From Candidatus Yanofskybacteria bacterium (GTDB taxonomy: Bacteria; Patescibacteriota; Minisyncoccia; 2-02-FULL-40-12; IGHO2-01-FULL-4-A), in assembly GCA_016181175.1 (NCBI GenBank), contig JACOZV010000004.1:7718-71717 (forward strand): DNA of 64,000 nt. Direction: 5' to 3'. Below are positions 49,081-62,125 of this stretch, piece by piece (the stretch's first letter is position 1; every line of letters begins with the position of its first letter). The notes under the pieces were generated by a model. The model was not told the DNA's origin. It saw only the letters and a list, made by a program, of their open reading frames with translations, and did not search any database. The position numbers were made by a program, and so were the translations under genes.

Positions 49081-50559
49081 TTACATTACCAACTTCCTAT
49101 ATGCCCCATCTAAAAAAGTGTCTATTGCTCTGATCTGATTATCTCTCCTTAAATCGAGGAGTGTTTTTATATCATCGTCGTCAAGCGCGATGATAAAACC
49201 TCGATCGTCGGACGCTGTATCTTTGCATCGTTGAATGAAGCGCGTCTTGTTGGTAAAACTCCTGCATATTAACAATCCGAATCTGCCACGATTAGTAGAA
49301 AACCTACCGGACAACTGGTCGAGTTCGGGGTTAGCCGGATCAGATGAGTAATTCTTACACTCAACAAAAATATAGCTTGATGGTACTCGCTTGTTCTGCG
49401 GTAATTCCCAAAAGAACCCTTTTTTTGCAGCGTTTTCGAAAACGATATCAACTTTCTTTCTCCTTTCATGTAGCGGCTGCTCCTTTTTCGGATTTATAAG
49501 AAACGGATAAAAAATGGCAGTGAGCGCCCCTTGAATATGGTTATGGAAATTGTCTGCGTCAGCATCACCAGTATCTATACGATCCAGTTCTGCTTTTAGA
49601 GCATCGAAGTCAAAAGCTGGGCGTGCACCTATAGCATCAATGTCTTCGTTACTAATTTCTTCGAGATTGTACTGTTTACTGTCGCGATATCGTCGCAAAA
49701 CTTCCGGATGATCTTTCGAAAAAGTGTAAAGAAATTGCTTCGAATGAGGGTGAAGTTCTTTGAGTGCCTTTTTTGTAGGCGGTCTACGCGTTCCATCTTT
49801 AAGCACCCTCACAAGGGCAGAGTTCGCGCTTAAATGCTCTTCCTGTAAAAAGTTTAGTACGAAATGCTGATAGTATTCCTGATGGCTAAACTCCAAACTA
49901 AAACGCGCAACTGCTTTAGGGACAAGTAAAACATTTCTATCATTACACACCGGAAGATTAACATACTCATTAGTCCATTCATTACGAACCGTATTCCAAA
50001 CAGTGCCGCTTGGTACGTTGTGCATTGTAATACCCCAAAATATACATTCGTTTTGGGTGTACTCGATTAACTTTCCGCGAATAATGTTAGTGGTCATGTC
50101 AGATATCTTGTCATGGCTGATGCCTTCGATAAGAAGTTCGCACTCTTCAAGATCTTTAAGAAACCCAGTTCTTACAGCCGAGCTTTCAGCCAACGCATCA
50201 TATAAATCGTTCGCCTGATCTCCTCCTACACCCCTACCTCTCGGGGATCCTCCAACAGACAAACCAAAACGAGTTTGATTCGGCTCTCGCAATCCTGAAA
50301 GCATGTATTTTGCGTCATCCTTTCTATCGGCTCTGATCAAGTCGATAACTCTTTGAAAAAAATTAACGATCTGATTGTGGCAATCGATTGACCACCTATC
50401 ATTCCGCTTTGAAAGAGCATAAGGATCAATAAACAAAGGAATATCCCCATTATTTATGGGAACATCGACAAAATCGAGTTCGTACTGGCTTTTACCAAGT
50501 CGGAAGTTCTCCGAAAAGGTTTCGTATCTTCTTGGTTGTTGTGTTCTTTGTCTTGGCAT
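49081..50559 (-). CDS. Hypothetical 492-aa protein with C-terminal PD-(D/E)xK restriction-endonuclease-like fold; candidate RM-associated effector/toxin
   Basis: C-terminal KKVDIVFENAAKKG...SYIFVECKNYSSD (D, E-x-K arrangement); N-terminal 330 aa unrecognised; starts 8 nt after hsdS stop. Confidence 0.5.
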   Translation of the reverse strand: MPRQRTQQPRRYETFSENFRLGKSQYELDFVDVPINNGDIPLFIDPYALSKRNDRWSIDCHNQIVNFFQRVIDLIRADRKDDAKYMLSGLREPNQTRFGLSVGGSPRGRGVGGDQANDLYDALAESSAVRTGFLKDLEECELLIEGISHDKISDMTTNIIRGKLIEYTQNECIFWGITMHNVPSGTVWNTVRNEWTNEYVNLPVCNDRNVLLVPKAVARFSLEFSHQEYYQHFVLNFLQEEHLSANSALVRVLKDGTRRPPTKKALKELHPHSKQFLYTFSKDHPEVLRRYRDSKQYNLEEISNEDIDAIGARPAFDFDALKAELDRIDTGDADADNFHNHIQGALTAIFYPFLINPKKEQPLHERRKKVDIVFENAAKKGFFWELPQNKRVPSSYIFVECKNYSSDPANPELDQLSGRFSTNRGRFGLLICRSFTNKTRFIQRCKDTASDDRGFIIALDDDDIKTLLDLRRDNQIRAIDTFLDGAYRKLVM

Positions 50560-50567
50560 GGTTCATG

Positions 50568-52250
50568 CTATTTGATCAATTTCTTATTCCAGCCCTTTGA
50601 TTTGATGAACTTGAGCGTGCCTTCGATTTCGGCTTTCCTAAACTTGTTTGGTTTCCATGCTTGAATCTTGTCATTGATCGTTGTGAGATCGTCGCTTTTT
50701 GCATCCTGCACAACCTTGCAGACGGTTGCCAAGCACTCAATTTGAGCGCTGGTGGAGTTTTTAATTGCCGGCATAAGATCATTAAGGACGGACTCCATGT
50801 TGCTCAAGATTTTTGAGTTGTATTTGAAGAGTTTACCGGAGTTAGCGCCTAAACCATAGACGCCGTTTTTTTGCTGAAAGAAGCCATTGCGAGGACTTGC
50901 GCCGGCGGTGATGGCTTTCTTAATCTGTAGATCGTAGGGGCCGAAGTTCTGCGAGGTAAAGCTGAAGCCGAGCGGTACCCTGTAAACTTCCTGCGCGAGA
51001 TATAAGAGCTTCGCCACAACCATTTCACCACGTTCAAAACGTTGCAACACCGCTCCGATGGCTTGCCACACCGGAAAGACACTTGCTTTGACAGGAACAG
51101 CAGCCACGCCCTCTTTTACCAACTCACCAGCAAGCGCTTTTGACAAGGCGGAATCAAAAAGTTCCTTCAGCTTCTCTTTTTGAACGAGAAGTCCTTTTTT
51201 ATACTCTTTAATAGCACTAAACCTCTCGGCAATGGCATGCTGGTCTGTCGTTGGTGGTACCATGATTTTTATTTTTTTAAGTGCGGTAGAGTTTACTGCG
51301 GCTTGATTTACCCACGGCGTGCATAGATAACGAAATCTATCGGTTGAATATAAGTATTGAAGATATATAGAGAAGTAGCGCGGATCTAATACTTTTTCGT
51401 TTGTGCGAATCCGAGTGATGTGATTTGAAAAGACATACTTGTAATCCTTGTCTATGTAAACGCTTTTTCCAACTAAACTAATACTGTTTGTATTATTAAA
51501 TAGGACATCACCACTCTTCAGGAAATAAGTTTCCGCATGTGGGTAATCCTGTGGAATATACTTGATGCTATCAAAGTTCAAACTACCGTCATCGCCGATA
51601 TTATTAGGTCTGATTTGTCCAATACCCTTCCCAACCGGACGGAAGGCAAAACCATTCGTAACATCGACTACTAACGCACCGATCTTTTCTTCCTTCCAGC
51701 TTTTTGACGATGATCCAAAAATCTTATTCAAAAGCGACTGAAAAAGCTGATCTGTTTTTTCAATAAGCGCATCATTGAGTTTTTGGGCTTCGCGGATAGA
51801 ATCAACACGTTCTGCAATTGCTTGTTGGGTATTTAAAGACGGCATTGGTACTCGTAAATTTTCAAGGAAGGTTCTATTCAAATGTGGTACTGCCGCTCCT
51901 TGCGCTGCTGATCTAATTTTTTGCTGATTAAATTGCAAAAGGTAAGCAAGGTATCGACTTTCCAGTGTTTCGTTATGAACCACTTTAGCAATCGTGGAAC
52001 CAACAAATCCTCTTAAACCGATACCAACGGTGCCGGCATAAGCACCATCCCAAACCAATAAAACATCGTCATTGTCGCATCGAACTCCGTTATTTTCTGA
52101 AGTGTAAAGCGTATATTGACCACTTCTTAAATTTTCAATGCCAATATAAGGCAAGGTGTCCTTTGCGGCTTCTGCTGCGGAAATCATCATTTTACCTTTC
52201 GCAAAAGAAATAAGTTCGCCTAATTTTTTTGTTTGATAATTACTTTGCAT
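50568..52250 (-). CDS. hsdS: Type I restriction-modification specificity subunit HsdS with ~180-aa C-terminal Panacea (DUF4065)-like extension
   Basis: Two TRD/conserved-repeat halves typical of HsdS (aa 1-380), then VVAKLLYLAQEVYRVPLGFSFTSQNFGPYDLQIKKAI resembling the Panacea KLQKLLYYAQ...GP motif; 560 aa versus ~400-450 for typical HsdS. Confidence 0.6.
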   Translation of the reverse strand: MQSNYQTKKLGELISFAKGKMMISAAEAAKDTLPYIGIENLRSGQYTLYTSENNGVRCDNDDVLLVWDGAYAGTVGIGLRGFVGSTIAKVVHNETLESRYLAYLLQFNQQKIRSAAQGAAVPHLNRTFLENLRVPMPSLNTQQAIAERVDSIREAQKLNDALIEKTDQLFQSLLNKIFGSSSKSWKEEKIGALVVDVTNGFAFRPVGKGIGQIRPNNIGDDGSLNFDSIKYIPQDYPHAETYFLKSGDVLFNNTNSISLVGKSVYIDKDYKYVFSNHITRIRTNEKVLDPRYFSIYLQYLYSTDRFRYLCTPWVNQAAVNSTALKKIKIMVPPTTDQHAIAERFSAIKEYKKGLLVQKEKLKELFDSALSKALAGELVKEGVAAVPVKASVFPVWQAIGAVLQRFERGEMVVAKLLYLAQEVYRVPLGFSFTSQNFGPYDLQIKKAITAGASPRNGFFQQKNGVYGLGANSGKLFKYNSKILSNMESVLNDLMPAIKNSTSAQIECLATVCKVVQDAKSDDLTTINDKIQAWKPNKFRKAEIEGTLKFIKSKGWNKKLIK

Positions 52251-52869
52251 AAGAATGCGCAGAGTATTGAATTCTACCTACGCGGTTTAATAAGCGCGTA
52301 TCCCGAACTTTTAAGTTTTCACCATCTTTATCGAATGGCCTTATTTCTGCTTTCCAAATAGATCTACAAAAAACAGTGTTCTGATCATTCATATATGTAA
52401 TTTCTAAACATACTGGTATCGCAAATTCAGCCATTTCATACCATTCTCTAAAATTTTTTATGAGTTGAAGTTTGATTCTAAATGACTCATCCTCTGTGGT
52501 CTGATAGAGGGGCACCTTATGATATCTTTCTTCTGCGATGGGCATACCGGTCGCTTTGGGTTGGGAGATATTAAAAGCCGATCCGCGACCAGAATTGAAA
52601 CAGTCAAACTCTATGGAAAAAACTATTTCAAAATGATTCGCATCAGCACGGATTATGCTTCCGGCATCCATCACACCATATCCATGCTCTACTTCACTAT
52701 GTCTAACCCCAACCCATATTCTTAATGGACGCAAAATTAAGCTGGGTACTGTACTTAATGCAGAATTCCAATCTGCTTTTCTGATAGCTTTTATCGAAAT
52801 CCACAGTGAAACAACTGCGGTTATCCCGACTAAAATATCTGCCGTTTTAGAAATTATTTCAAAATTCAT
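52240..52869 (-). CDS. Hypothetical N-terminally TM-anchored protein (209 aa) inserted between hsdM and hsdS
   Basis: TM ILVGITAVVSLWISI; no recognisable domain; 6-nt gap to hsdM, 11-nt overlap with hsdS. Confidence 0.45.
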   Translation of the reverse strand: MNFEIISKTADILVGITAVVSLWISIKAIRKADWNSALSTVPSLILRPLRIWVGVRHSEVEHGYGVMDAGSIIRADANHFEIVFSIEFDCFNSGRGSAFNISQPKATGMPIAEERYHKVPLYQTTEDESFRIKLQLIKNFREWYEMAEFAIPVCLEITYMNDQNTVFCRSIWKAEIRPFDKDGENLKVRDTRLLNRVGRIQYSAHSYAK

Positions 52870-52875
52870 AATCTT

Positions 52876-54405
52876 TTATCCCAGTTTATCTGTCATCTCT
52901 TCTTGTAATTTTGTTAGATCTTTATTGATTTTCTCAATTTCTTTCAAAATAATTTTTGGCTCGCGGTGTTTTATCTCTTCTCCGATAGCATATGGGTTAT
53001 AAGTGTTTGCAGAAAGTATGTAATCATTTTCGATGATTTCTTTAACTGGCGTAAACCATGCAAGCTGTTTTTCAACTGCGCGGTTTTTATGCCAGAGTTC
53101 CAACAGCTTCGGAATATCATTTCTATATTGGCTGCCGAATTTTTTGGATGCTGAAAGCGATGAACCATCACCTTGCATATCAAAGAACCATACCTTTGCA
53201 GATTCATCGAGTTTCGGCACCGCCTTTTTTTTGAACACCAAGAAGGACGTTTTTACGCCGGCATACGGCTGAAACACGCCTGCCGGCATGGAAACAACCG
53301 CCTGTAAGTCCGTATTTTCAAGTAGAAAACGGCGGATCTCTTTATCATCGCGGTTGGTACCAAAAAATGAACCTTCGGGAAGGATTATGCCGGCTCTGCC
53401 ATTGGGCTTGAGCGAGTTTATAACATGACCCAAAAATAGAACCTGTGTTTTGGTTGATTTGACCGGCAAGGTTGGTTTTATACGTTCCCGATCAACCTTT
53501 CCAGAGAATGGTGGATTTGTAAGGACAATATCGAATGTGCGCAGATCATCCTCATCTTCAGATCCAGCAACCGTGTCTTTGCGCTTAATGTTCGCACTCT
53601 CTATGCCATGTAATATCAAATTCATAAGTGCTAACCGCACCATCTCCGGATCAACATCAGAACCCAAAAAGGTTTTTTTGGTTAGAAATTCCCACTGTTT
53701 TTTATCGAGCTTATCTCCAAACCCCCTCTTGTGTCCATTTTCCTCTTCAATGCTTTTGGGATCGCTATTTCTTAATCGGATCCAATCATAGCCGGAGATG
53801 AGGAAGCCACCAGAACCACACGCAGGATCATAAACAGTTTCGCCAATTTTTGGATTCACCATTTCAACTATGACGCGAACGATATGACGCGGAGTGAGAA
53901 ATTGTCCAAGTTCGCCGGCTGATTCAATACTTGCAAGCAGCTCTTCATAAAGATCGCCCTTAACATCTGTGTCTAATCCTGTTAAATTGATCGTGTCAAT
54001 AATTTCAATCGTGTTTTTTAATGTAACAGAATGGGGAATTTCGAGCTTCGCATCATAAAAAATTTGCCGTATGTTAGAGTGTCCATTTTGCAATCGCTCC
54101 ACAAAGGGAAATACCTCATCACGAACAATTTTATACAATTCATCGCCAGCTTTTTCTTTCCAGCGCGACCATCGGAATTTTTCGTTTTTGCCCTCGAAAA
54201 TTGATTTATGTTTACGCCCAGTAAGTTCTTCGCCTCTCTCCATAGAAATATCCTGTTCCTCAAGCATTTTCAAAAAAAACAAAAAGCTAATCTGCTGGAT
54301 CCTTCTCACAGGGTCTCGTAAACCTGCACCCCAAAGATAATCGTTCAGGCGATCTAATTTTTGGCGAAACTCTATTCTTAATTGTTGTATTTTTTGTTCG
54401 GGCAT
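52876..54405 (-). CDS. hsdM: Type I RM N6-adenine DNA methyltransferase subunit
   Basis: NPPF motif (VLTNPPFSGK), AdoMet motif DPACGSGGFL. Confidence 0.85.
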   Translation of the reverse strand: MPEQKIQQLRIEFRQKLDRLNDYLWGAGLRDPVRRIQQISFLFFLKMLEEQDISMERGEELTGRKHKSIFEGKNEKFRWSRWKEKAGDELYKIVRDEVFPFVERLQNGHSNIRQIFYDAKLEIPHSVTLKNTIEIIDTINLTGLDTDVKGDLYEELLASIESAGELGQFLTPRHIVRVIVEMVNPKIGETVYDPACGSGGFLISGYDWIRLRNSDPKSIEEENGHKRGFGDKLDKKQWEFLTKKTFLGSDVDPEMVRLALMNLILHGIESANIKRKDTVAGSEDEDDLRTFDIVLTNPPFSGKVDRERIKPTLPVKSTKTQVLFLGHVINSLKPNGRAGIILPEGSFFGTNRDDKEIRRFLLENTDLQAVVSMPAGVFQPYAGVKTSFLVFKKKAVPKLDESAKVWFFDMQGDGSSLSASKKFGSQYRNDIPKLLELWHKNRAVEKQLAWFTPVKEIIENDYILSANTYNPYAIGEEIKHREPKIILKEIEKINKDLTKLQEEMTDKLG

Positions 54406-54407
54406 AG

Positions 54408-56663
54408 TTATCGTGTACAGATCCTTTGGTTAAGCTCCGAGAGAGCGGATTGTAAAACACCTTCCTCAAACACTCGCAACGCATAATTAAGACCACCGAT
54501 TTGCCGGAAGATCGGCTCGTTGAATATGGAAATATCAACCGGCTCTTTGCGAACGATACATTGCGACTTTACCAAACGCAGGATTTTTATTTGATCGGAT
54601 GCAAAGTTTTTCTCGATTAGCCATGATTCAAAAAGCTGATTTACACGCTGCTCATGTAGTTGCTCTTCTGTAGGGAACTCCTTTGTTTTGAGTGCTGCTT
54701 GTATGAAGTCATTGAGCGTGCCTACCGGATAGCGATATGCTTCTCGCAAGTTTGCTTCGTTAAAATAGAACTCCGGAGAATTAAGTTTTTCGGAAAGGAA
54801 GGCGGTTTCGTCATTTGAAAGATCTTCGCCTTGTTTAACTTTTGAAATAAGCGGCTCGGTTTTAGCCATCTCTTGAACTTGCTGCTCCCATGCCACCTGA
54901 TAATCATCGGCATCAATTCTTTCGCCTTCTGCTCCAACTTCGATATGCGCACGCTGCATAACCACGTCCATGTTTTCGGGTGCTGTTTCCGGCACTTGAA
55001 CAAAAAGTCGCTTCACCACTTCTTCCTCTTCCTGCGTTAAATCTTCAGCTTCGGTTCCCCACGGAATACCAGCTTTAATTTTTGCATAGGCAGAATACGG
55101 ATCAAATCCTTCGTCATTGAAGTAACGAGTAACGCCAGCAAAGTCATAAATACGAAAAGATGTTTTGCTGATTTTTTGATATAATCGGCTGCCACGTCCT
55201 CGCATCTGTTGGTAAAGGATCGGGGAACGTGTAGGACGCGCCATGATCAAGTTTTCTACCATTGGGACATCGATGCCGGTATCCATCATACCCACCGAAA
55301 CCGCTACCATCGGCATTTCTTGGTGCTTAAAACGTCTTATGGCTCCACGAGGATCTTCGGTATCGGAAGTAATAACTTCAGCGTATCTTCCCTTATATTC
55401 CGGATATGTCTGATTGAGATAATACGCCAATTGCGCAGCGTGTTTTTTCGTAACAGCATAAAGAATGGTTTTGCGATGGTGTTTTGGTTCATGCTTTTCT
55501 TCTTCCTCTCTGAATGTTTTTGCCAATTGCTCGTTTCTTGCCGGCACATTGATTTTTCTCTCCAAATCTTCGGCGTTGTAATCTTCACCCTCAAATTGCA
55601 CACCTTCTAAAGACACTTTGGTGTCGATCTGTAAGATCTCATAACCAGCAAGAAATCCCTCTTTGATGCCTCGTCGAATACTGTATAGAAATGTCGGTTT
55701 ACCCTTTTTTTCACGCTCATCCCAACAACCAAAGAGCTTATAGGTGTTACGATCAATAAACACACTCGGCGTTGCTGTAAGACCTATCCGGATTGCGTCA
55801 AAATGCGATAGGACAGCGTTGTAGATGCCGAAGATGGATCTATGTGCTTCGTCCGAGATAACCACATCAAAATAACCACTTGTAAAATTCGATAGTTGCG
55901 AATAAAGAGTGGGAAGTGTCGAGATGATTATTGAGGATTCGTCTTTTTGCTTGCCTCCGTAAAGAAGCTTTGTAGGATAATCTTTCAAAATTTCATCAAA
56001 AACTTCCTTTGTTTGTATGCCTAAATCAATGCGATCAACAAGAAATAAAACACGCCGGATGAGATTCGCTTCAAACAGCCGTTTGAGATAAAGAGCTATG
56101 GTATCTGTCTTGCCAGTGCCGGTTGCCATAGCGATGAGCATTTTGCGCAAACCGCCCTCAATGGTTTTGTCCATGATCTGCATGGCCTCCTTTTGATATG
56201 GGCGTGGTGTGCGTAATTCGCCACCTTTAAAATAATTGTCGGGTACAGGAATGGCGGTTATCGGCTTTTGATCTATTCGTAGGGTTTGGATTTTTTCTAA
56301 ATCGCGTTGAGAAAAGAAGGTAATTACCTTTTGCTCTGGACGATATTTGTAATCCCAAAAATAAATATCCTCTCCATTGGAAAGGAAAATGAAATCGATA
56401 CCCAGCTCTTCTGCGTAGGTCAATGCCTGCTGTTTTGCCAATACTGGTTCAGTTGAAAACCGCTTTGCTTCGATAAGCCCGATGGCTCTGCCGCGTCTAT
56501 CCCTCAAGAAATAATCGGCACGTCCATCCTTCACCGGATCTTCGGTTGAAACTTGATTTTTATCCTCAATATCCCAGCCAGCTTCGCGGAGTTTGCGATC
56601 GATGACAATGCGAGCGTCCGTTTCTCTTGAGTTGTTATTGTTATTTGTCATATTCATTTTCAT
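54408..56663 (-). CDS. hsdR: Type I restriction enzyme R subunit (compact, 751 aa)
   Basis: N-terminal PD-(D/E)xK (DYFLRD...IEAKR), SF2 helicase Walker A MATGTGKTDT and DEAH-like VVISDEAHRS. Confidence 0.75.
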   Translation of the reverse strand: MKMNMTNNNNNSRETDARIVIDRKLREAGWDIEDKNQVSTEDPVKDGRADYFLRDRRGRAIGLIEAKRFSTEPVLAKQQALTYAEELGIDFIFLSNGEDIYFWDYKYRPEQKVITFFSQRDLEKIQTLRIDQKPITAIPVPDNYFKGGELRTPRPYQKEAMQIMDKTIEGGLRKMLIAMATGTGKTDTIALYLKRLFEANLIRRVLFLVDRIDLGIQTKEVFDEILKDYPTKLLYGGKQKDESSIIISTLPTLYSQLSNFTSGYFDVVISDEAHRSIFGIYNAVLSHFDAIRIGLTATPSVFIDRNTYKLFGCWDEREKKGKPTFLYSIRRGIKEGFLAGYEILQIDTKVSLEGVQFEGEDYNAEDLERKINVPARNEQLAKTFREEEEKHEPKHHRKTILYAVTKKHAAQLAYYLNQTYPEYKGRYAEVITSDTEDPRGAIRRFKHQEMPMVAVSVGMMDTGIDVPMVENLIMARPTRSPILYQQMRGRGSRLYQKISKTSFRIYDFAGVTRYFNDEGFDPYSAYAKIKAGIPWGTEAEDLTQEEEEVVKRLFVQVPETAPENMDVVMQRAHIEVGAEGERIDADDYQVAWEQQVQEMAKTEPLISKVKQGEDLSNDETAFLSEKLNSPEFYFNEANLREAYRYPVGTLNDFIQAALKTKEFPTEEQLHEQRVNQLFESWLIEKNFASDQIKILRLVKSQCIVRKEPVDISIFNEPIFRQIGGLNYALRVFEEGVLQSALSELNQRICTR

Positions 56664-56676
56664 TCTTGAGCTTGAT

Positions 56677-58476
56677 CTATAAATTCTCGTAATACCCCCT
56701 GATCTTTTTCGCCATGAGTTTGCGGCGTTCCTTCAAAAACCTTTCGTAATCCCCAAGCTCCATATTCTGAAAGCCATCCGGTATGCAATTCTGTTTTAGG
56801 TTCTCGGCGAGATCTTTTTTATCGGTTATGCCGCCATACTTGAGCTTGCCTCCTTCGGTTTGTTTCATTACTTCAGCCATGTACTCTTTGGGAGATTTTT
56901 TGCCGACTTTGATATTTATTTCAGATTGAGCATAAGTAAAGTTGCCAATCTGGTTGTAATCGCCCCTACTTAAGCCGCCTGCTTTCTTCAGGTATTCCTT
57001 TGGAAAGAGATGATGGATGTCGCCGCGATGACTGATCATATTACCAACGGTAATGTCGGTTGAAAGAAAGCCCCTGTCGTTATTTTTAACCTGTGCCGCA
57101 AAAAAAAGATTGAGAAATGGATTGCTGATGCTCGCCTTATCGAGTTCCTGAATAAGCTGCGCGTTCCAAAAAGCATCGGAGAGTTGCGCTTCTTCGATTG
57201 ATTTCAAAATCTCGCCAGCATCGCCATTGGAAATCTGCTTAATATCCGAATCAAATTGGCTTTCCGGTGATCCGGAATAACGTCCGGTGAGGATAGACAT
57301 CACAAACCAGCGTTGGACATACTTTTCGATCAAGCTTGGATCGACACTCTTATCGCGCAGCTTGAGATATAAAATATAGGCAAAGTTAAGAGCGTTTTGC
57401 GAATTGATAAGGTCGTTGCTTATAAAGCCGCAGGATTTGATGATCATTACAAACCGCTTGAAGTTTGTTTCATTTACAAAATCCAGTACCGCATCACGGA
57501 GTTTTTGGAAAGACGCATCCATTATGTCTTGCTCAAAACTGCGTGTTTCAAAGTTACGCCCCGAAAGCAGTCCGACAAGATCCGCCATCTTGCCTCGTTC
57601 AAATTGTTTGGTGAAACTCACACGCAACACATCGGAATAATCCGGATCGTAGAGGTCGTCATTTTCATCTTTAAGCCATGCAAGTTTTGAAAGGTAAACA
57701 GTTTTGTTAAACTCTGCATCATTTTCAGTTATGTGTTTGTAAAACTGCGGCTCGCGCGCAAGATGGCAAAAATAGTCGACACACTTTCTTAAATTAACGC
57801 CGAAATTATCCTCCTTGTCATAAGAAGCTATCTTCGACATGGCAAAGTCAGCTTGGCTTAATACAACACCTTTGGAATTGATACGGATAAAAATCTCGGT
57901 AACCGTTTCAATATCTAAACCGGCATCAAGTTCAATAAAACCAACCTGCTTGCTTTTGATCTGTAATAACTTCTCAATGTTCTTTTCAATGAGTTCACGA
58001 TTTACGTCAAGATTTTTGTCGCAATAGTCAGTTACATCTTTGAATAAGCCGCCGTCCTTACTCATAAGTTTTGAGATGTCAGCTATCCACGCCTTGTCCT
58101 TTTTTATTGCCGGTGTGAGTGTGGCAAATTCTTCTATGATGGGGTGAAATGCAATATAGATCCGTTCCTCCTTATAATCTTTATTGATAATGTTTTGACC
58201 GAGAATTGCCGCACGGAGAGCGGTAATGCGTTGCTGTCCGTCAATCAAGACCTTTTTGCCGTTGGAAATGGAGCCATCTTTAAGACGAACATCGGGGTTT
58301 TTCCATGCAATGATATAGCCGATCGGATAGCCACGATAAAGCGAATCCATCAGATCGCGCACCTTTGTCGAATCCCAAACAAACGGACGCTGGATTTCCG
58401 GTATAGCGATTTCCTTTTCCTGAACCCAATTCAGGATATTGCTCACAAAGTATTGATTGACTGTGTATTTTTGCAT
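56677..58476 (-). CDS. GmrSD-family Type IV (modification-dependent) restriction endonuclease: DUF262 + DUF1524
   Basis: DUF262 motifs IPEIQRPFVW and DGQQRITAL; C-terminal HNH-like DIHHLFPKEY; start taken at MQKYTVNQY. Confidence 0.75.
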   Translation of the reverse strand: MQKYTVNQYFVSNILNWVQEKEIAIPEIQRPFVWDSTKVRDLMDSLYRGYPIGYIIAWKNPDVRLKDGSISNGKKVLIDGQQRITALRAAILGQNIINKDYKEERIYIAFHPIIEEFATLTPAIKKDKAWIADISKLMSKDGGLFKDVTDYCDKNLDVNRELIEKNIEKLLQIKSKQVGFIELDAGLDIETVTEIFIRINSKGVVLSQADFAMSKIASYDKEDNFGVNLRKCVDYFCHLAREPQFYKHITENDAEFNKTVYLSKLAWLKDENDDLYDPDYSDVLRVSFTKQFERGKMADLVGLLSGRNFETRSFEQDIMDASFQKLRDAVLDFVNETNFKRFVMIIKSCGFISNDLINSQNALNFAYILYLKLRDKSVDPSLIEKYVQRWFVMSILTGRYSGSPESQFDSDIKQISNGDAGEILKSIEEAQLSDAFWNAQLIQELDKASISNPFLNLFFAAQVKNNDRGFLSTDITVGNMISHRGDIHHLFPKEYLKKAGGLSRGDYNQIGNFTYAQSEINIKVGKKSPKEYMAEVMKQTEGGKLKYGGITDKKDLAENLKQNCIPDGFQNMELGDYERFLKERRKLMAKKIRGYYENL

Positions 58477-58477
58477 A

Positions 58478-58666
58478 TTACTTTTTTGGTTTCTTGATAT
58501 TCGATCGAGAACGAATAAACGCCTCGAGATCGCTCTCGCTGATCCGCCAATAGCCGACTTTGGTCGCCTTGAGCCGCCCACTCGAAATATAGCGATACAA
58601 GGATCGCTCGCTAACTCGCAAATACTTTGCCGCTTCACGTAATGTAAGAAATTTCTTTTTGGTCAT
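58478..58666 (-). CDS. Excisionase/Xis-family helix-turn-helix DNA-binding protein (62 aa)
   Basis: LTLREAAKYLRVSERSLYRYISSGRLKATKVGYWRISESDLEAF matches the excisionase-type HTH. Confidence 0.65.
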   Translation of the reverse strand: MTKKKFLTLREAAKYLRVSERSLYRYISSGRLKATKVGYWRISESDLEAFIRSRSNIKKPKK

Positions 58667-58747: not shown

Positions 58748-59188
58748 TTAGCAGGGGTAACCATTTGGACAAATATCTTCCTGTCGTTCGGTCGTCGGAT
58801 CAATAGGGGTGTTTAAGTCCGGCACGGTATGGTTGCGTGCCATCAACCACCAAACGAGAAGTATCCAAAATCCCCAAAATAAAACTACTGGAACAACTTT
58901 TGAGATGTTTTTCTTTACTCTGATTTTCAACGGAGGGTGAAGTACATGTTTAAGCTCATGGCTTGCTAAATCGCCGTACTCGATTTTCTCCACACACTTT
59001 GGACACGCAACAAATTCTTTCTGCTGCTCGGAAAAGCGCTTGTTTACTCTTGCCCAGAACCCCTCGTCAATAAATGGATTTCTATTTTTTCCGCTCATAG
59101 TTTTGTGAGCGGCGAGTTTTGAAACACAAAACCCACCACTGGGAGGGCTTGCGCCCCTATGGAAGTTTCCCTCCATAACGTTAGGCAC
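58748..59188 (-). CDS. Hypothetical protein with Cys/His zinc-finger-like motif and C-terminal TM helix
   Basis: CPKCVEKIEYGDLASHELKH; TM VVPVVLFWGFWILLVWWLM. Confidence 0.4.
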   Translation of the reverse strand: MPNVMEGNFHRGASPPSGGFCVSKLAAHKTMSGKNRNPFIDEGFWARVNKRFSEQQKEFVACPKCVEKIEYGDLASHELKHVLHPPLKIRVKKNISKVVPVVLFWGFWILLVWWLMARNHTVPDLNTPIDPTTERQEDICPNGYPC

Positions 59189-59330
59189 GCCCCAAATGAT
59201 GGGTTTTCTATGCCTAACGATTTGCGACCATGCCGCCAGCCGAAGCCGATGGTTTAGATCATTTGATATCCAATTGTGTTTTTAAGTATATCAGAAAAAC
59301 ATGAGATCCTGCAACGGATGAAAAATACTG

Positions 59331-59352
59331 CTGGTCAAATGTGGCAAGGTCT
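59331..59352. promoter_or_regulatory. Operator-like motif copy 2 in the divergent promoter region
   Basis: ctGGTCAAATGTGGCAAgGTCtG. Confidence 0.45.
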
Positions 59353-59371
59353 GCTAAAATGAGTTTTAAGA

Positions 59372-59869
59372 ATGACGATGAATATGAAAATGAATAGTAA
59401 AAAAACCGAACCATTTCGCGTTGTTATAAATACAAGTACCGACCCCAATGTGCCATTGATTGAGCTTGTACGTGGTAACCGGAAAGCCAAACTTCCACCT
59501 ATTGCGATCAAAAACGTACGTCTTGATACCGATCGCTATTTGCTTGTCGTAAATGACGGCGAGCGCGTTGTTGCCTTTAAGTCAAAAAGGCACAAGAAGG
59601 GACTGGATAAAGAAACGAAGCTATTTAAAGTGCTGGTATTGCTTTTTGATTTTCGCCTCGAAAAAAAGGGTGAAAAAATACTCCACAGCAAAAACCTTAA
59701 CCCCGACTACACTTCTCTAAAAAATATCGCCGGAAATAGCGGAAGCCCAACACAAGAAGCAGCATATAGAAACATAAAGCGGTTAAATGGCTACTTTGAG
59801 GAAAATGGCTTGTCTATATGGATTGAAAAACACGGCAATGATTGCCGCCTCGTAGTTAAGAAGAGTTAA
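59372..59869 (+). CDS. Hypothetical protein (165 aa), mobile-element module
   Basis: ORF with plausible coding bias; no recognisable domain. Confidence 0.4.
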   Translation: MTMNMKMNSKKTEPFRVVINTSTDPNVPLIELVRGNRKAKLPPIAIKNVRLDTDRYLLVVNDGERVVAFKSKRHKKGLDKETKLFKVLVLLFDFRLEKKGEKILHSKNLNPDYTSLKNIAGNSGSPTQEAAYRNIKRLNGYFEENGLSIWIEKHGNDCRLVVKKS

Positions 59870-60052
59870 TACGCGGACATTATTTTTACAGAAGCGCTCG
59901 ATACTTTAAGGATAAAAGCGCTCAAAAAGTAGAAAAAATCCCTCAAGGGACATTTTGAAAATGTCCCCGATTTTTCTCAATAGTGAATGATATGGTCAAA
60001 GCAAGATACGCTTTGGCTTTTTTGTTTTCCCAAGCCAGCGCGGTCGGATGAT

Positions 60053-60298
60053 ATGAAGATACTAAATGAAAAAAACTTTTATCAAACTTCTGACTTTTGC
60101 CTCGCAACGGTTATTTCACTTTCTTTTCCGATAGAAGCAGTAGATCGGCAGAACACGCGAAAAGTTCAATTTATATTTCGTCGCAATAACGTCCTCGATA
60201 AGCTGATCGAGGATTTTTGGCGTGGTGAGATCCGAATTGATCCACAGCTTTTCTATAACCAATTACGAGTGATGAAAGCTCGGATTTACAACGACTAA
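60053..60298 (+). CDS. Hypothetical small protein
   Basis: ORF 59987-60298; likely start MKILNEK. Confidence 0.35.
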   Translation: MKILNEKNFYQTSDFCLATVISLSFPIEAVDRQNTRKVQFIFRRNNVLDKLIEDFWRGEIRIDPQLFYNQLRVMKARIYND

Positions 60299-60299
60299 C

Positions 60300-60554
60300 A
60301 TGCTTAAACCATCGGCAATTGAAGAATTAAGGTCGATATTGCTCGAAGAGTTTGGGCGTGATGTTGATATTAAAACAGCCAGAACGATCGGCGAGGATTT
60401 AGTCGGCTTCTACGACACTCTCGCAAAGATCGCGCATAAGGATAAAACGATAAGCAAAAATCTTTCCCCTTGCTCGGGTTCCATAGTGGACTATCCACTT
60501 GCAATGAGTAGTTCATTGAAAAAGAGGGTGGAACCCGAACAAAGAGAAAGATAA
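60300..60554 (+). CDS. Hypothetical small protein (84 aa)
   Basis: Starts 2 nt after the previous ORF and is immediately followed by the helicase gene. Confidence 0.4.
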   Translation: MLKPSAIEELRSILLEEFGRDVDIKTARTIGEDLVGFYDTLAKIAHKDKTISKNLSPCSGSIVDYPLAMSSSLKKRVEPEQRER

Positions 60555-60565
60555 AAAAAGAAATT

Positions 60566-62125
60566 ATGAAAAACATTTTTAGTGGTAACCACAAAAAAGG
60601 AAAGGTGTCCGACAAACTGAAGGGCGCGGAATTGGTTTTAGATGTGATCGAAAAAAGCGACTTATGGCTCTTTCACGATCAATTAAACGAGGCATACGCC
60701 GTTATAGCTGGTGATGGAGCATCAATAATGAAAATCGACTCGCAAAAGTTCCACAACTGGCTTTTTAATCATATCTATGACGAAACCGGAAAGATCAGCA
60801 ACACAGCCGCGTGCGAGGCAGCCATAAAGGTTCTGAAACATCAAGCAGAAACTGGGAATCTATTTGAGCTTGGAGTTAGGGTAAAACTGCGTGAGGGCGG
60901 TATTTGGTACGATCTCGGCGGTCAAAACTTTGTGAGTATCGCAGAAGATGGATGGTTGGTAACTGATCCTCCGCAACCAATCCTCTTTAAGAGGTTCGGG
61001 CATCAAAAAGAGCAGGTGCGACCGGAACGCGAGGGTAGCATGAATGAGTTTATGGAGCTTATTAACCTACAAGACAAAAAAGAATCTTTGCTCCTCATGG
61101 TTTACTTGGTTGCATCGTTTATTCCTAACTTTCCTCATCCTGTATTGATTGTGCATGGTTCGCAGGGGGCTGCTAAAAGTACCGCATGTAAATTGATTAA
61201 AGAATTAGTGGATCCATCTGCATTAGAAACTTCGACTATAAACGACGATAAAGACATAAAAGAATTGGTACAAGCCGCATCGCATCATTGGCTGTTAGTT
61301 CTCGATAATATCTCCTATATCTCCGAGAAAATCTCGGACACGATCTCACGAATATGTACCGGAGGCGGATTATCTAAAAGAATACATTATAGCAATGACG
61401 ACGACTTCATTTACAACTTTATGCACATAGTCGCCATTAACGGAATCCATCAGATCGTAAGCAAGCCCGATCTCCTCGATCGATCAATCTTGTTGGCGCT
61501 TGAACGCATCCCTGAAGATAAAAGGATAACGGAGGAGCAACTTTGGGGTCGTTTCAATGCAATGAAAGGAAGAGTTCTCGGCGCGGTTTTCGATGCCGTA
61601 TCCGGAGCATTGCGTGAATATCCGAATGTGCAGTTAGCAACATTGCCACGAATGGCGGACTTTGCACGCTGGGGATGCGCTATTGCGAGGACGCTCGGCT
61701 ACACCGACGAGGACTTTATGAATGTATACAAAACGAATATCGGAAGGCAGAACCAAGAGGCGCTTTCAGCAAGCGCCACAGCAGCAGTCATCATCAAGCT
61801 CATGGAAGATAATGATGTTTTCGAAGATACACCATCTGCTCTTTTGCGACTAATGGATCCGATAGCCGACGATCTCAAGGTAAAAGAAGCGAAGGATTAT
61901 CCACGACAGGCAAACTGGCTTTGGAGGCGCATTGAAGCGGTTATACCGAACCTTGCTGACGCCGGCATAAAGGTCGAGCAAACGAAAGATACTGAACGGA
62001 AGATAAAAATATCAAAGATATTGCGCGGTGATGACAGCACTGAAATTATGCCGTCTTCCGAAAAACCAGCAGAAGAACCTGCAAAAGACAGCATCGACAG
62101 CATAGACGGCACTTTCCCCCTGTAG
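60566..62125 (+). CDS. Phage/plasmid primase-associated SF3 helicase (D5/P4-alpha-like) replication protein
   Basis: Walker A VHGSQGAAKST, Walker B LLVLDNISY, motif C VAINGIH in SF3 spacing. Confidence 0.6.
   Translation: MKNIFSGNHKKGKVSDKLKGAELVLDVIEKSDLWLFHDQLNEAYAVIAGDGASIMKIDSQKFHNWLFNHIYDETGKISNTAACEAAIKVLKHQAETGNLFELGVRVKLREGGIWYDLGGQNFVSIAEDGWLVTDPPQPILFKRFGHQKEQVRPEREGSMNEFMELINLQDKKESLLLMVYLVASFIPNFPHPVLIVHGSQGAAKSTACKLIKELVDPSALETSTINDDKDIKELVQAASHHWLLVLDNISYISEKISDTISRICTGGGLSKRIHYSNDDDFIYNFMHIVAINGIHQIVSKPDLLDRSILLALERIPEDKRITEEQLWGRFNAMKGRVLGAVFDAVSGALREYPNVQLATLPRMADFARWGCAIARTLGYTDEDFMNVYKTNIGRQNQEALSASATAAVIIKLMEDNDVFEDTPSALLRLMDPIADDLKVKEAKDYPRQANWLWRRIEAVIPNLADAGIKVEQTKDTERKIKISKILRGDDSTEIMPSSEKPAEEPAKDSIDSIDGTFPL

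What the first reader, a model, noticed from the sequence alone, without database searches (positions are those of the whole stretch)
52240..52869. Unknown TM-anchored 209-aa gene wedged between hsdM and hsdS
The hsdM-hsdS junction is a classic insertion site for add-on abortive-infection genes (e.g. PrrC, AbiEii, and toxins in Type I loci). This ORF overlaps hsdS by 11 nt and sits 6 nt from hsdM. It has a single N-terminal TM helix and no recognisable domain. It could be a membrane-acting effector or an RM accessory.
Basis: inference. Interest (0 to 1): 0.55.

Follow-up and report, generated by a model that had tools for sequence, protein, structure and literature searches.

The report
Membrane-anchored cargo gene inside RM operon
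A real, conserved but uncharacterised gene for a small membrane-anchored protein sits between the methylase and specificity genes of a Type I restriction system in a CPR bacterium, and its relatives behave as a mobile ~0.7-kb cassette that repeatedly lands at this junction, so it is most likely an add-on phage-defence gene of a new protein family.

Summary
ORF 52240-52869 (-) encodes 209 aa, lies 6 nt after hsdM and overlaps hsdS by 11 nt. It has one N-terminal TM helix and matches nothing in Pfam, NCBIfam, PHROGs, PADLOC or PDB sequences.

It is a genuine gene of a very rare family: 25 clusters among 1.84 billion representatives, with named sources all CPR/Patescibacteria. AlphaFold gives a TM helix followed by a confident Ig-like beta-sandwich (domain pLDDT 94.5) with no significant structural relative. 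Charge distribution places the sandwich in the cytoplasm. It is not an HsdS fragment (hhalign probability 0.06%).

In 13 of 20 distinct loci the gene lies between hsdM and hsdS, abutting an hsdS-type start. These loci span four Type I lineages whose HsdM proteins are only 25-34% identical. An 86%-identical 713-bp segment, essentially the gene alone, is shared by two unrelated RM loci. In several relatives it is flanked by direct copies of the hsdS 5' leader, as are neighbouring cargo genes (Shedu, PIN and others).

Best reading: an autonomous defence-cargo cassette acting at the membrane (confidence 0.4 overall; about 0.25 for the specific sensor-plus-oligomerising-helix mechanism). The function is untested. 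It is a new family of a known kind, the RM-embedded gene.

The parts
52240..52869 (-). Gene X: 209-aa bitopic membrane protein of a new family
   Evidence: ORF. 32 homologues. AF2 full-length model pLDDT 85, pTM 0.73.
52783..52842 (-). TM helix (about residues 10-29) with a conserved small-residue face: G/A15, A18, S21, S25, A28
   Evidence: Hydropathy. Conservation shows helical periodicity, peak at 100-105 degrees, permutation p=0.025. The TM region is as conserved as the core motifs.
52753..52782 (-). Basic juxtamembrane helix (residues 30-39, consensus K/R-K-S-D/E-W-x-S-A-M), predicted on the cytoplasmic side
   Evidence: 2-4 K/R within 10 residues after the TM against 0-1 before it. Two-TM and signal-peptide-like variants give the same C-in orientation.
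52243..52752 (-). Ig-like beta-sandwich domain (residues 40-209) with conserved hairpins NxGRGxAFN and YTNDQxN
   Evidence: Domain-only AF2 model pLDDT 94.5, pTM 0.87. The best Foldseek PDB hits are gamma-adaptin ear domains, E 0.03, TM 0.3-0.45, not significant. Median net charge about 0.
52876..54405 (-). hsdM (Type I methyltransferase); its stop is 6 nt before the start of X
   Evidence: Pfam N6_Mtase 1e-61, HsdM_N; PADLOC MTase_I 3e-141.
51111..52250 (-). hsdS core (two TRDs plus conserved helices, aa 1-380); its ATG lies inside the last codons of X
   Evidence: Pfam Methylase_S 6e-34; PADLOC Specificity_I 5e-65 over aa 4-377.
52220..52250 (-). hsdS 5' leader (ATG..TATCAAACAAAAAAATTAG = MQSNYQTKKLG). 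This is the motif that bounds cargo cassettes in related loci; the window has a single copy.
   Evidence: for the window copy. Five copies in L018 against 0.04 expected.
50568..51110 (-). C-terminal 180-aa extension of HsdS, DarG-C-terminal/Panacea-like. High GC3 (0.58) suggests a foreign fusion.
   Evidence: PADLOC DarG 6.5e-11. NCBIfam DarG 6e-6. Pfam SocA_Panacea 0.02 over the full profile. GC3. The same fusion occurs in L020 without X.
54408..56663 (-). hsdR (EcoEI/Type IB-like C-terminus)
   Evidence: Pfam ResIII, EcoEI_R_C, HSDR_N; PADLOC REase_I 7e-70.
56677..58638 (-). GmrSD-like (DUF262) Type IV restriction candidate at the head of the cluster
   Evidence: Pfam GmrSD_N 7e-33; PADLOC HEC-05 7e-32.
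58478..58666 (-). HTH_17 (excisionase/MerR-type) small regulator, first gene of the co-directional cluster
   Evidence: Pfam HTH_17 3e-18. The best promoter-like site on the minus strand is at 58710-58682.
49081..50559 (-). 492-aa defence candidate (PADLOC PDC-M36A; phrog_27295), last gene of the cluster
   Evidence: PADLOC 2e-48. PHROG 4e-105. A terminator-like hairpin on the minus strand at 48696-48669 follows it.

Best explanation
Gene X is an autonomous, horizontally mobile cargo gene carried inside the Type I RM operon. It encodes a bitopic inner-membrane protein with a short N-terminal tail outside, one TM helix and a cytoplasmic Ig-like beta-sandwich of about 170 aa.

The proposed mechanism is inferred. 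X would be a single-protein anti-phage module that acts at the membrane. The cytoplasmic sandwich would be a protein- or peptide-binding sensor, for a phage product or for a state of the resident RM complex. The unusually conserved TM helix would self-associate through its small-residue face. Ligand binding would then either perturb the membrane (abortive-infection type) or block entry or early steps at the inner face of the membrane.

X is co-transcribed with the RM genes and translationally coupled to them: 6 nt after hsdM, with its stop inside the hsdS start.

Shown by computation: the gene is real, and its architecture, topology prediction, conservation pattern, repeated embedding and cassette mobility are established. 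Inferred: the defence role (guilt by embedding) and the sensor-plus-oligomerising-helix mechanism.

In several relatives the likely route to the M/S junction is recombination at the conserved hsdS 5' leader. This duplicates the leader on both sides of the cassette. The window itself shows no left-hand copy.
For: X is a real and conserved gene.

Architecture is a TM helix plus a confident beta-sandwich.

The C-in topology has three consistent lines of support: K/R after the TM helix, two-TM variants with a basic N-terminus, and a signal-peptide-like variant, P0035.

The TM and juxtamembrane segments are as conserved as the core motifs. Conservation is helically periodic, with a G/A-A-S-S-A stripe. 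This is more than a passive anchor would need.

X is embedded between hsdM and hsdS in 13 of 20 loci.

These loci span four RM lineages. HsdM is 25-34% and HsdR 28-34% identical between lineages, while X stays 47-60% identical.

L027 and L018 share only a 713-bp, 86%-identical segment, which is X plus short flanks. Their HsdM and HsdS proteins are 27% and 26% identical.

Cassettes are bounded by copies of the hsdS leader. L018 has 5 copies against 0.04 expected.

Neighbouring cassettes or neighbours are bona fide defence genes: Shedu SduA (1e-63 in L011; SduA_C in L025), PIN_12, ImmA-like plus DUF4411, GmrSD, SMODS plus SLATT, DUF4145, HNH.

Copies without RM (L004, L016, L017, L021, L025) show that X does not need a Type I system.

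The guilt-by-embedding framework, with PrrC as the precedent for a Type I-embedded Abi gene, comes from bioRxiv 10.1101/2024.01.29.577857.

The window's cluster reads as one operon of defence genes.
Against: There are no experimental data.

The beta-sandwich is a generic Ig-like fold with no significant structural or sequence relative, so its ligand is unknown.

A single TM helix may be only an anchor.

No catalytic motif or signalling partner is conserved.

Two solo copies sit among housekeeping genes (L010, L014).

The family is tiny and, where sources are named, CPR-restricted. 'Defence' therefore rests on context only.

The near-constant abutment to hsdS could instead reflect a functional link to HsdS.

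The window itself shows no left-hand leader copy, so the insertion mechanism is inferred from relatives.
Confidence: 0.4

Rival explanations
1. X is an accessory subunit or tether of the Type I enzyme. The cytoplasmic sandwich binds HsdS (or M2S1) and holds the RM complex at the inner face of the membrane where foreign DNA enters, or it modulates assembly. Translational coupling to hsdS sets the stoichiometry.
For: The only recurrent genomic partner of X is hsdS, immediately downstream and usually overlapping by 8-11 nt. X and the hsdS core share a low GC3 (0.31 and 0.34) against 0.39 and 0.41 for hsdM and hsdR. The topology puts the domain in the cytoplasm. The best, though weak, fold resemblance is to a peptide-binding adaptor ear domain. 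From my own knowledge, some Type I enzymes such as EcoKI fractionate with the membrane.
Against: Seven of 20 held loci, plus one DNA-less locus, have X with no Type I genes nearby. X is 47-87% identical across RM systems whose HsdM and HsdS are about 25-30% identical, which is not the co-evolution expected of a bound subunit. In L001, L008 and L018 other cargo genes lie between X and hsdS. The abutment to hsdS is explained by the leader-repeat insertion site.
Confidence: 0.2
2. X is a non-defence passenger. It would be a CPR-specific membrane protein of some other role, such as envelope or episymbiosis-related, or a selfish stabilising element, that merely hitch-hikes in a recombination hot spot.
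For: Two solo copies lie among housekeeping genes (L010, L014). No defence-type domain is present. The M/S junction accepts many unrelated ORFs. According to Payne et al., more than half of embedded genes have no assigned role.
Against: 13 of 20 loci are inside RM operons, and most of the rest are beside defence or MGE genes. The same analysis found that embedded genes are rarely housekeeping. Strong purifying conservation of both the TM helix and the domain is retained across transfers.
Confidence: 0.2
3. X blocks phage entry in the manner of a superinfection-exclusion protein. It would do so from the membrane, without killing the cell.
For: It is a small bitopic membrane protein with an Ig-like domain. 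It occurs on mobile-element-like islands in L016 (resolvase, Imm_superinfect, Dam, HNH) and L017 (Prim-Pol, S24).
Against: It was not found in 2.9 million IMG/VR viral contigs. The domain is predicted to be cytoplasmic, not surface-exposed. Most copies are chromosomal RM cargo.
Confidence: 0.1
4. X is the toxin of a toxin-antitoxin pair whose antitoxin is the DarG-C/Panacea-like domain fused to the C-terminus of the window's HsdS.
For: The Panacea/DarG-C-like domain is encoded by the gene immediately downstream of X. L005 and L006 also carry HTH-Panacea genes in the same operons. From my own knowledge, Panacea antitoxins pair with very diverse toxins, including membrane proteins.
Against: Most X loci have no such domain (tblastn of the extension finds only L020). 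L020 has the same HsdS-extension fusion but no X. In L005 and L006 the Panacea gene has its own small downstream partner and is separated from X by hsdS. Solo X copies have no antitoxin candidate.
Confidence: 0.05
5. X is a split-off or degenerate fragment of hsdS.
For: It is adjacent to hsdS. Most homologues start MNW, which resembles the hsdS leader.
Against: hhalign of the X family against 10 HsdS proteins gives probability 0.06% with 1 aligned column. No Methylase_S hit is found for any of 30 members. The fold, a TM helix plus an Ig-like sandwich, is unlike a TRD.
Confidence: 0.01

Closest known systems
PrrC (anticodon nuclease embedded in the EcoprrI Type I RM locus)
   Same: Both are single add-on genes that live almost exclusively inside Type I RM operons and are co-expressed with them. 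PrrC provides the logic of a second-line, abortive defence guarding the RM system (plus own knowledge).
   Different: There is no homology. PADLOC gave no hit at all for X, and I assume it holds PrrC models because its authors tabulate PrrC as a known system. PrrC is a soluble ABC-ATPase-like tRNA nuclease. X is a membrane protein with an Ig-like domain and no nuclease motif. X also occurs without RM.
Phage-defence candidates found by 'guilt-by-embedding' (HEC/PDC families, Payne et al. 2024, bioRxiv 10.1101/2024.01.29.577857)
   Same: X meets the operational criterion: an uncharacterised gene nested repeatedly within a multi-gene defence system, and neither an MGE gene nor a housekeeping gene.
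   Different: X matches none of the 5027 PADLOC models. That catalogue was built from RefSeq, whereas X is a rare family whose named sources are all CPR metagenome-assembled genomes.
TM-plus-small-beta-domain effectors of signalling defence systems (e.g. CBASS Cap15, SLATT, Pycsar TM effectors)
   Same: Similar size and layout: one or two N-terminal TM helices followed by a compact all-beta cytoplasmic domain. These are the precedent for ligand-triggered membrane disruption (own knowledge). One homologue (L017) lies next to SMODS plus SLATT.
   Different: There is no sequence or fold match. No nucleotide-synthase partner is present in 19 of 20 loci. No ligand-binding motif is recognised.
Gamma-adaptin ear / GAE Ig-like sandwich
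   Same: This is the best structural resemblance. It is a protein- and peptide-binding platform.
   Different: E 0.03-0.3 and TM 0.3-0.45 are not significant. The resemblance is an analogy of fold class only.
Integron cassette arrays, and excision-reintegration at the pneumococcal tvr Type I locus (PMC6265443, known to me here only from its title and abstract)
   Same: Both involve promoterless ORFs arrayed in one orientation, separated by copies of a short repeat, expressed from the host operon and exchanged between loci. A circular intermediate integrating at one repeat would give the observed duplication.
   Different: The repeat here is the coding 5' end of hsdS (about 25-40 bp), not an attC site or a recombinase site. 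No integrase or recombinase gene is seen in the arrays. The cargo consists of defence genes rather than hsdS halves.

Membership tests
HsdS / Methylase_S (split specificity subunit) | Sequence or profile homology to a TRD or to the conserved HsdS helices | tested here: not met
   Pfam gives no hit for X or for any of 30 members. hhalign of X family A2 against HsdS alignment A4 gives probability 0.06%. The AF2 fold differs.
PrrC / RloC anticodon nucleases | ABC-ATPase-like N-domain plus a C-terminal nuclease domain | tested here: not met
   PADLOC gave no hit of any kind for X at E<=0.1. X is 209 aa, has no P-loop, and consists of a TM helix plus a beta-sandwich. Whether this PADLOC version holds a PrrC model was not checked directly.
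Defence-system-embedded candidate (guilt-by-embedding class) | Repeatedly nested inside a known multi-gene defence system, and not an MGE or housekeeping gene | tested here: met
   13 of 20 loci lie between hsdM and hsdS, in four RM lineages.
Defence-system-embedded candidate (guilt-by-embedding class) | Measured anti-phage activity | not testable with these tools
   This needs plaque or liquid infection assays.
CBASS/Pycsar-type TM effectors (Cap15-like) | Homology to a known effector family and an adjacent signal-producing enzyme | tested here: not met
   PADLOC gave no hit of any kind for X. No known defence effector appears among the listed Foldseek matches. SMODS is adjacent in only 1 of 20 loci.
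PanT toxin of a Panacea (PanA) toxin-antitoxin pair | Conserved adjacency to a Panacea-domain antitoxin | tested here: not met
   The Panacea/DarG-C-like domain is adjacent only in the window. It occurs without X in L020, and X occurs without it elsewhere.
Bitopic N-out/C-in membrane protein | One hydrophobic helix with positive charge on the C-terminal side | tested here: met
   29 of 30 members have a TM segment. K/R counts are 2-4 after the helix and 0-1 before it. Two-TM and signal-peptide-like variants agree. This is prediction only.
Ig-like / E-set beta-sandwich (GAE-like) | Significant structural superposition | tested here: inconclusive
Leader-flanked mobile cassette (integron-like) | A discrete shared DNA segment bounded by direct repeats in unrelated host loci | tested here: met
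   This holds in relatives. L027 and L018 share 713 bp at 86%. Leader copies flank X in L018, L027, L024 and L021. L018 has 5 copies against 0.04 expected. It does not hold in the window, which has one copy only.
Leader-flanked mobile cassette (integron-like) | A dedicated recombinase or an observed circular intermediate | not tested
   No recombinase ORF was noticed in the arrays. Detecting circles needs raw reads.

The most novel reading that the evidence does not exclude
In CPR bacteria the first ~12 codons of hsdS would serve as an integron-like capture site. Promoterless defence cassettes (X, Shedu, PIN, unknowns) would enter and leave Type I RM operons by recombination at this leader. 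Each insertion would regenerate an hsdS start and reuse its translation signals. X would be the most successful cassette of this platform. It would be a new kind of single-protein, membrane-level abortive-infection or guard module whose cytoplasmic Ig-like domain senses a phage product or inhibition of the RM enzyme.
Probability: 0.2. Interest if true: 0.75.

Novelty: new member of a known kind. Interest (0 to 1): 0.5.

Why it matters
CPR/Patescibacteria have tiny genomes and few recognised defence systems beyond RM. A conserved, mobile add-on gene in their Type I operons is therefore a concrete candidate for a missing layer of immunity, and its protein family and fold are not in any library.

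The leader-repeat structure of the arrays also offers a mechanistic explanation for why the hsdM-hsdS junction is a hot spot for defence cargo. This has so far been described only as a pattern ('embedding').

Both ideas can be tested directly: by expressing a 0.63-kb gene, and by looking for leader-leader circle junctions in reads.

Tried and rejected
Split hsdS: rejected.

Homology to any curated family: none. This covers Pfam, PADLOC, NCBIfam and PHROGs for X, Pfam for all 30 members and the PDB sequence profile (best E 2.4).

Phage origin: there are no relatives in IMG/VR.

X as the partner of the HsdS C-terminal DarG-C/Panacea-like domain: rejected because each occurs without the other.

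A conserved second partner gene: all-against-all BLAST of neighbours in 21 loci found only HsdS, HsdM and HsdR as recurrent partners. Shedu is upstream in L011, L025 and, as a 56-aa remnant, L008 only.

Structural disulphide (C90-C168) as evidence for an extracytoplasmic domain: C90 is lost in about 10 of 30 members while C168 is kept, so the pair is not obligate.

DNA-binding or DNA-mimic character: the domain has a median net charge of about 0.

A left-hand leader copy in the window: not found.

The broad alignment A2 was too divergent for the search for related loci, so A1 was used instead.
Full report
OBSERVATION. The ORF at 52240-52869 (minus strand, 209 aa, ATG) is present exactly as described. 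It begins 6 nt after the stop of hsdM (52876-54405). Its last 11 nt contain the ATG of hsdS (50568-52250). The neighbours are a bona fide Type I system: HsdM has N6_Mtase 1e-61, HsdS has Methylase_S 6e-34, and HsdR has ResIII plus EcoEI_R_C. The cluster is one co-directional block of seven genes: HTH_17 regulator, GmrSD-like gene, hsdR, hsdM, X, hsdS and a PADLOC PDC-M36A-like gene. The best promoter-like site on that strand lies just upstream (58710-58682) and a terminator-like hairpin just downstream (48696-48669). X has no match in Pfam, PADLOC, NCBIfam or PHROGs.

IS IT A GENE? Yes. A first search found 15 homologues at 42-100% identity. The identical protein is annotated as hypothetical in a Candidatus Yanofskybacteria MAG, which identifies the window as CPR. 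A profile search of 1.84 billion cluster representatives found only 25 clusters. A profile search of the 5.8-billion set found 32 proteins. The family is therefore real but very rare. Its named sources are Yanofsky-, Morani- and Kaiserbacteria and 'Patescibacteria'. Conserved motifs are SxWxSAMxTxPS after the helix, NxGRGxAFN, and YTNDQxNxxCxSxW.

- 29 of 30 members have a hydrophobic segment above threshold.
- Lys/Arg cluster after it (2-4 in 10 residues) and not before it (0-1).
- Members with two hydrophobic segments have a basic N-terminus.
- One member (P0035) looks like a cleavable signal peptide followed by the conserved helix.
- All of this predicts that the sandwich is cytoplasmic.

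The TM and juxtamembrane segments are as conserved as the core motifs: mean top-residue frequency is 0.56-0.62, against 0.34-0.45 for the variable parts. Conservation in the helix is periodic, with a peak at 100-105 degrees (permutation p=0.025) and a stripe of small residues G/A15-A18-S21-S25-A28. This suggests a specific helix-helix contact rather than a passive anchor. The domain is on average uncharged.

NOT A SPLIT hsdS. Profile-profile comparison of the X family with ten HsdS proteins gives probability 0.06%.

GENOMIC CONTEXT ELSEWHERE. I collected 20 distinct loci with DNA, plus one without (L026 is 99% identical to part of L030). In 13 of the 20, X lies upstream of hsdS on the same strand. 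Where the contig reaches far enough, it lies downstream of hsdM. These are the window, L001, L005, L006, L008, L011, L013, L018, L019, L023, L024, L027 and L030.

The RM systems fall into four lineages: {window, L008, L024, L027}, {L001, L005, L006}, {L011, L030} and {L018}.
- Between lineages HsdM is 25-34% identical and HsdR 28-34%. L018 even has a different HsdR architecture.
- X remains 47-60% identical.
- Within a lineage X diverges faster than HsdM, for example 59% against 73%.
- X has therefore moved between RM systems.

The remaining loci have no Type I genes, but most are defence or MGE neighbourhoods:
- L004: DUF4145.
- L016: resolvase, Dam, HNH.
- L017: SMODS plus SLATT, Prim-Pol.
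- L021: Fic, DrmA-like fragment.
- L025: GmrSD plus a Shedu-like gene that overlaps X by 4 nt.

L010 and L014 are among housekeeping genes. No relative was found in IMG/VR. Other cargo sharing the M/S gap with X includes Shedu SduA (1e-63, L011), PIN_12 (L030), ImmA-like plus DUF4411 (L019), a methyltransferase-like ORF (DPPY motif by eye) followed by a weak DpdB/DndB-like ORF (PADLOC DpdB 4.5e-8; L024), and several unknowns. All-against-all BLAST of neighbours shows that the only recurrent partners of X are HsdS, HsdM and HsdR.

X IS A CASSETTE. L027 (lineage A) and L018 (lineage D) share a single DNA segment of 713 bp at 86% identity. It covers X plus about 54 bp upstream and 35 bp downstream. 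Their HsdM and HsdS proteins are 27% and 26% identical. The segment is bounded on both sides by copies of the hsdS 5' leader (ATG-N3-9-TGGCCAACAAAAAAATTAGGAGAG, encoding M..WPTKKLGE).

Upstream of X the leader forms a 13-codon mini-ORF that ends in TAA one base before X's ATG. This left junction is conserved in L018, L027, L024 and the non-RM locus L021.

L018 has five leader copies on one strand, one between each pair of cargo ORFs (207 | 145 | X | 183 | 250 | hsdS). The number expected by chance is 0.04. Cargo ORFs downstream of X in L001, L008 and L018 begin in frame with the leader: MKTNWQTK.., MQNNWPTKKLGE.., MNSINNWPTK... The simplest explanation is insertion by recombination at the hsdS leader, which duplicates it. 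That explains why X always abuts an hsdS-type start.

In the window only the right-hand copy exists (52220-52238). No left copy is recognisable in the 6-nt gap or at the end of hsdM. GC3 is compatible with a mosaic locus: X 0.31, hsdS core 0.34, hsdM 0.39, hsdR 0.41 and the hsdS C-terminal extension 0.58.

THE HsdS EXTENSION. The window's HsdS carries an extra 180 aa. These resemble the DarT-binding C-terminal part of DarG (PADLOC 6.5e-11) and, weakly, the Panacea antitoxin domain. I tested whether it could be an antitoxin for X. It occurs fused to an HsdS C-terminus in L020 without X, and X occurs in 19 other loci without it. It is therefore not an X-specific partner.

MECHANISM. The following are shown by computation: the architecture, the predicted topology, the conserved TM face, co-transcription, repeated embedding, mobility, and independence from RM in a third of loci. 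Function is inferred.

I commit to X being an autonomous defence-cargo gene that acts at the inner membrane. In this model the Ig-like domain is a protein-binding sensor and the TM helix an oligomerising effector, giving an abortive or exclusion outcome. Overall confidence is 0.4. Confidence in the specific sensor-plus-helix step is about 0.25.

The rivals are:
- an RM tether or accessory (0.2), weakened by the solo copies, the lack of co-evolution with RM subunits and the intervening cargo;
- a non-defence passenger (0.2);
- an entry blocker (0.1);
- a toxin neutralised by the HsdS extension (0.05);
- an hsdS fragment (0.01, refuted).

COMPARISON WITH WHAT IS KNOWN. Embedding of defence genes in Type I, BREX, DISARM and Hma systems is established. 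PrrC is the classic gene found almost only in Type I loci. TgvAB in Vibrio is a recent example. X fits that kind but belongs to none of the catalogued families. The leader-flanked array resembles integron cassettes and the excision-reintegration described at the pneumococcal tvr locus (title and abstract only). It differs in using the coding start of hsdS as the repeat and in having no visible recombinase. My three literature searches, none of which targeted this protein family directly, did not turn up a description of it or of the leader-flanked array.

VERDICT. X is a new protein family of a known kind, RM-embedded cargo. Interest is moderate (0.5). Interest would be higher if the hsdS-leader capture mechanism or a membrane-level guard function were confirmed.

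Noticed in passing
L018:3600-6115 (also L008:3578-4984, L027:3113-3801, L024:5916-5934, L021:5756-6438): The cargo ORFs between hsdM and hsdS are each separated by a direct copy of the hsdS 5' leader (TGGCCAACAAAAAAATTAG..). L018 has five copies against 0.04 expected. Some cargo ORFs start in frame with the leader. This looks like an integron-like cassette array with no visible recombinase.
   Followed up: partly
window 50568-51110 (-): HsdS has a 180-aa C-terminal extension resembling the DarG C-terminal (toxin-binding) region and the Panacea antitoxin domain, with much higher GC3 (0.58) than the rest of the locus. The same fusion to an HsdS C-terminal helix is seen in L020 (P0054). Its partner toxin, if any, is unknown; the downstream 492-aa gene is a candidate.
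   Followed up: partly
window 49081-50559 (-): A 492-aa protein matches PADLOC candidate PDC-M36A (2e-48) and phrog_27295 (4e-105) but no Pfam family. It is the last gene of the RM cluster and lies 8 nt after hsdS.
   Followed up: no
window 56677-58666 (-): A GmrSD_N/DUF262 protein (HEC-05-like) lies directly upstream of hsdR, preceded by and overlapping a 62-aa HTH_17 gene with the best promoter-like site of the region. The arrangement, Type IV plus Type I in one operon, resembles the Vibrio TgvAB/T1RM nesting.
   Followed up: partly
window 58748-62125: Beyond the island lie small unknown ORFs, a DUF5659 protein and a 519-aa ORF without a Pfam hit, on the opposite strand. This is possibly the remnant of a mobile element bordering the defence cluster. 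No tRNA or integrase was seen there.
   Followed up: partly
L011:6870-7949, L025:3038-4201, L008:2777-2947: Shedu-type (SduA/DUF4263) genes lie immediately upstream of X in two independent loci. In L025 the gene overlaps X by 4 nt outside any RM system. A 56-aa remnant of the L025-type gene precedes X in L008. This may be a possible X-Shedu link or simply neighbouring cassettes.
   Followed up: partly
L008:3566-4120 and L018:4724-5275: A 183/184-aa ORF that starts with the hsdS leader follows X in two loci whose RM genes are unrelated, so X and this ORF can travel together.
   Followed up: no
L010:2482-3483: One homologue (P0009, 333 aa) has an extra C-terminal region of about 120 aa with further hydrophobic segments. 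It sits in a non-defence neighbourhood.
   Followed up: no
L005:2768-3833, L006:6518-7589, L001:10294-11679: The hsdS-hsdR gap of lineage-B loci is a second cargo site. It holds HTH-Panacea plus a small ORF, or Fic plus a 62-aa ORF, which are toxin-antitoxin-like pairs.
   Followed up: no
L012, L013: Two short contigs carrying X are binned as 'Gammaproteobacteria' and 'Methanosarcinales' MAGs. Given the rest of the family, these are probably mis-binned CPR fragments.
   Followed up: no
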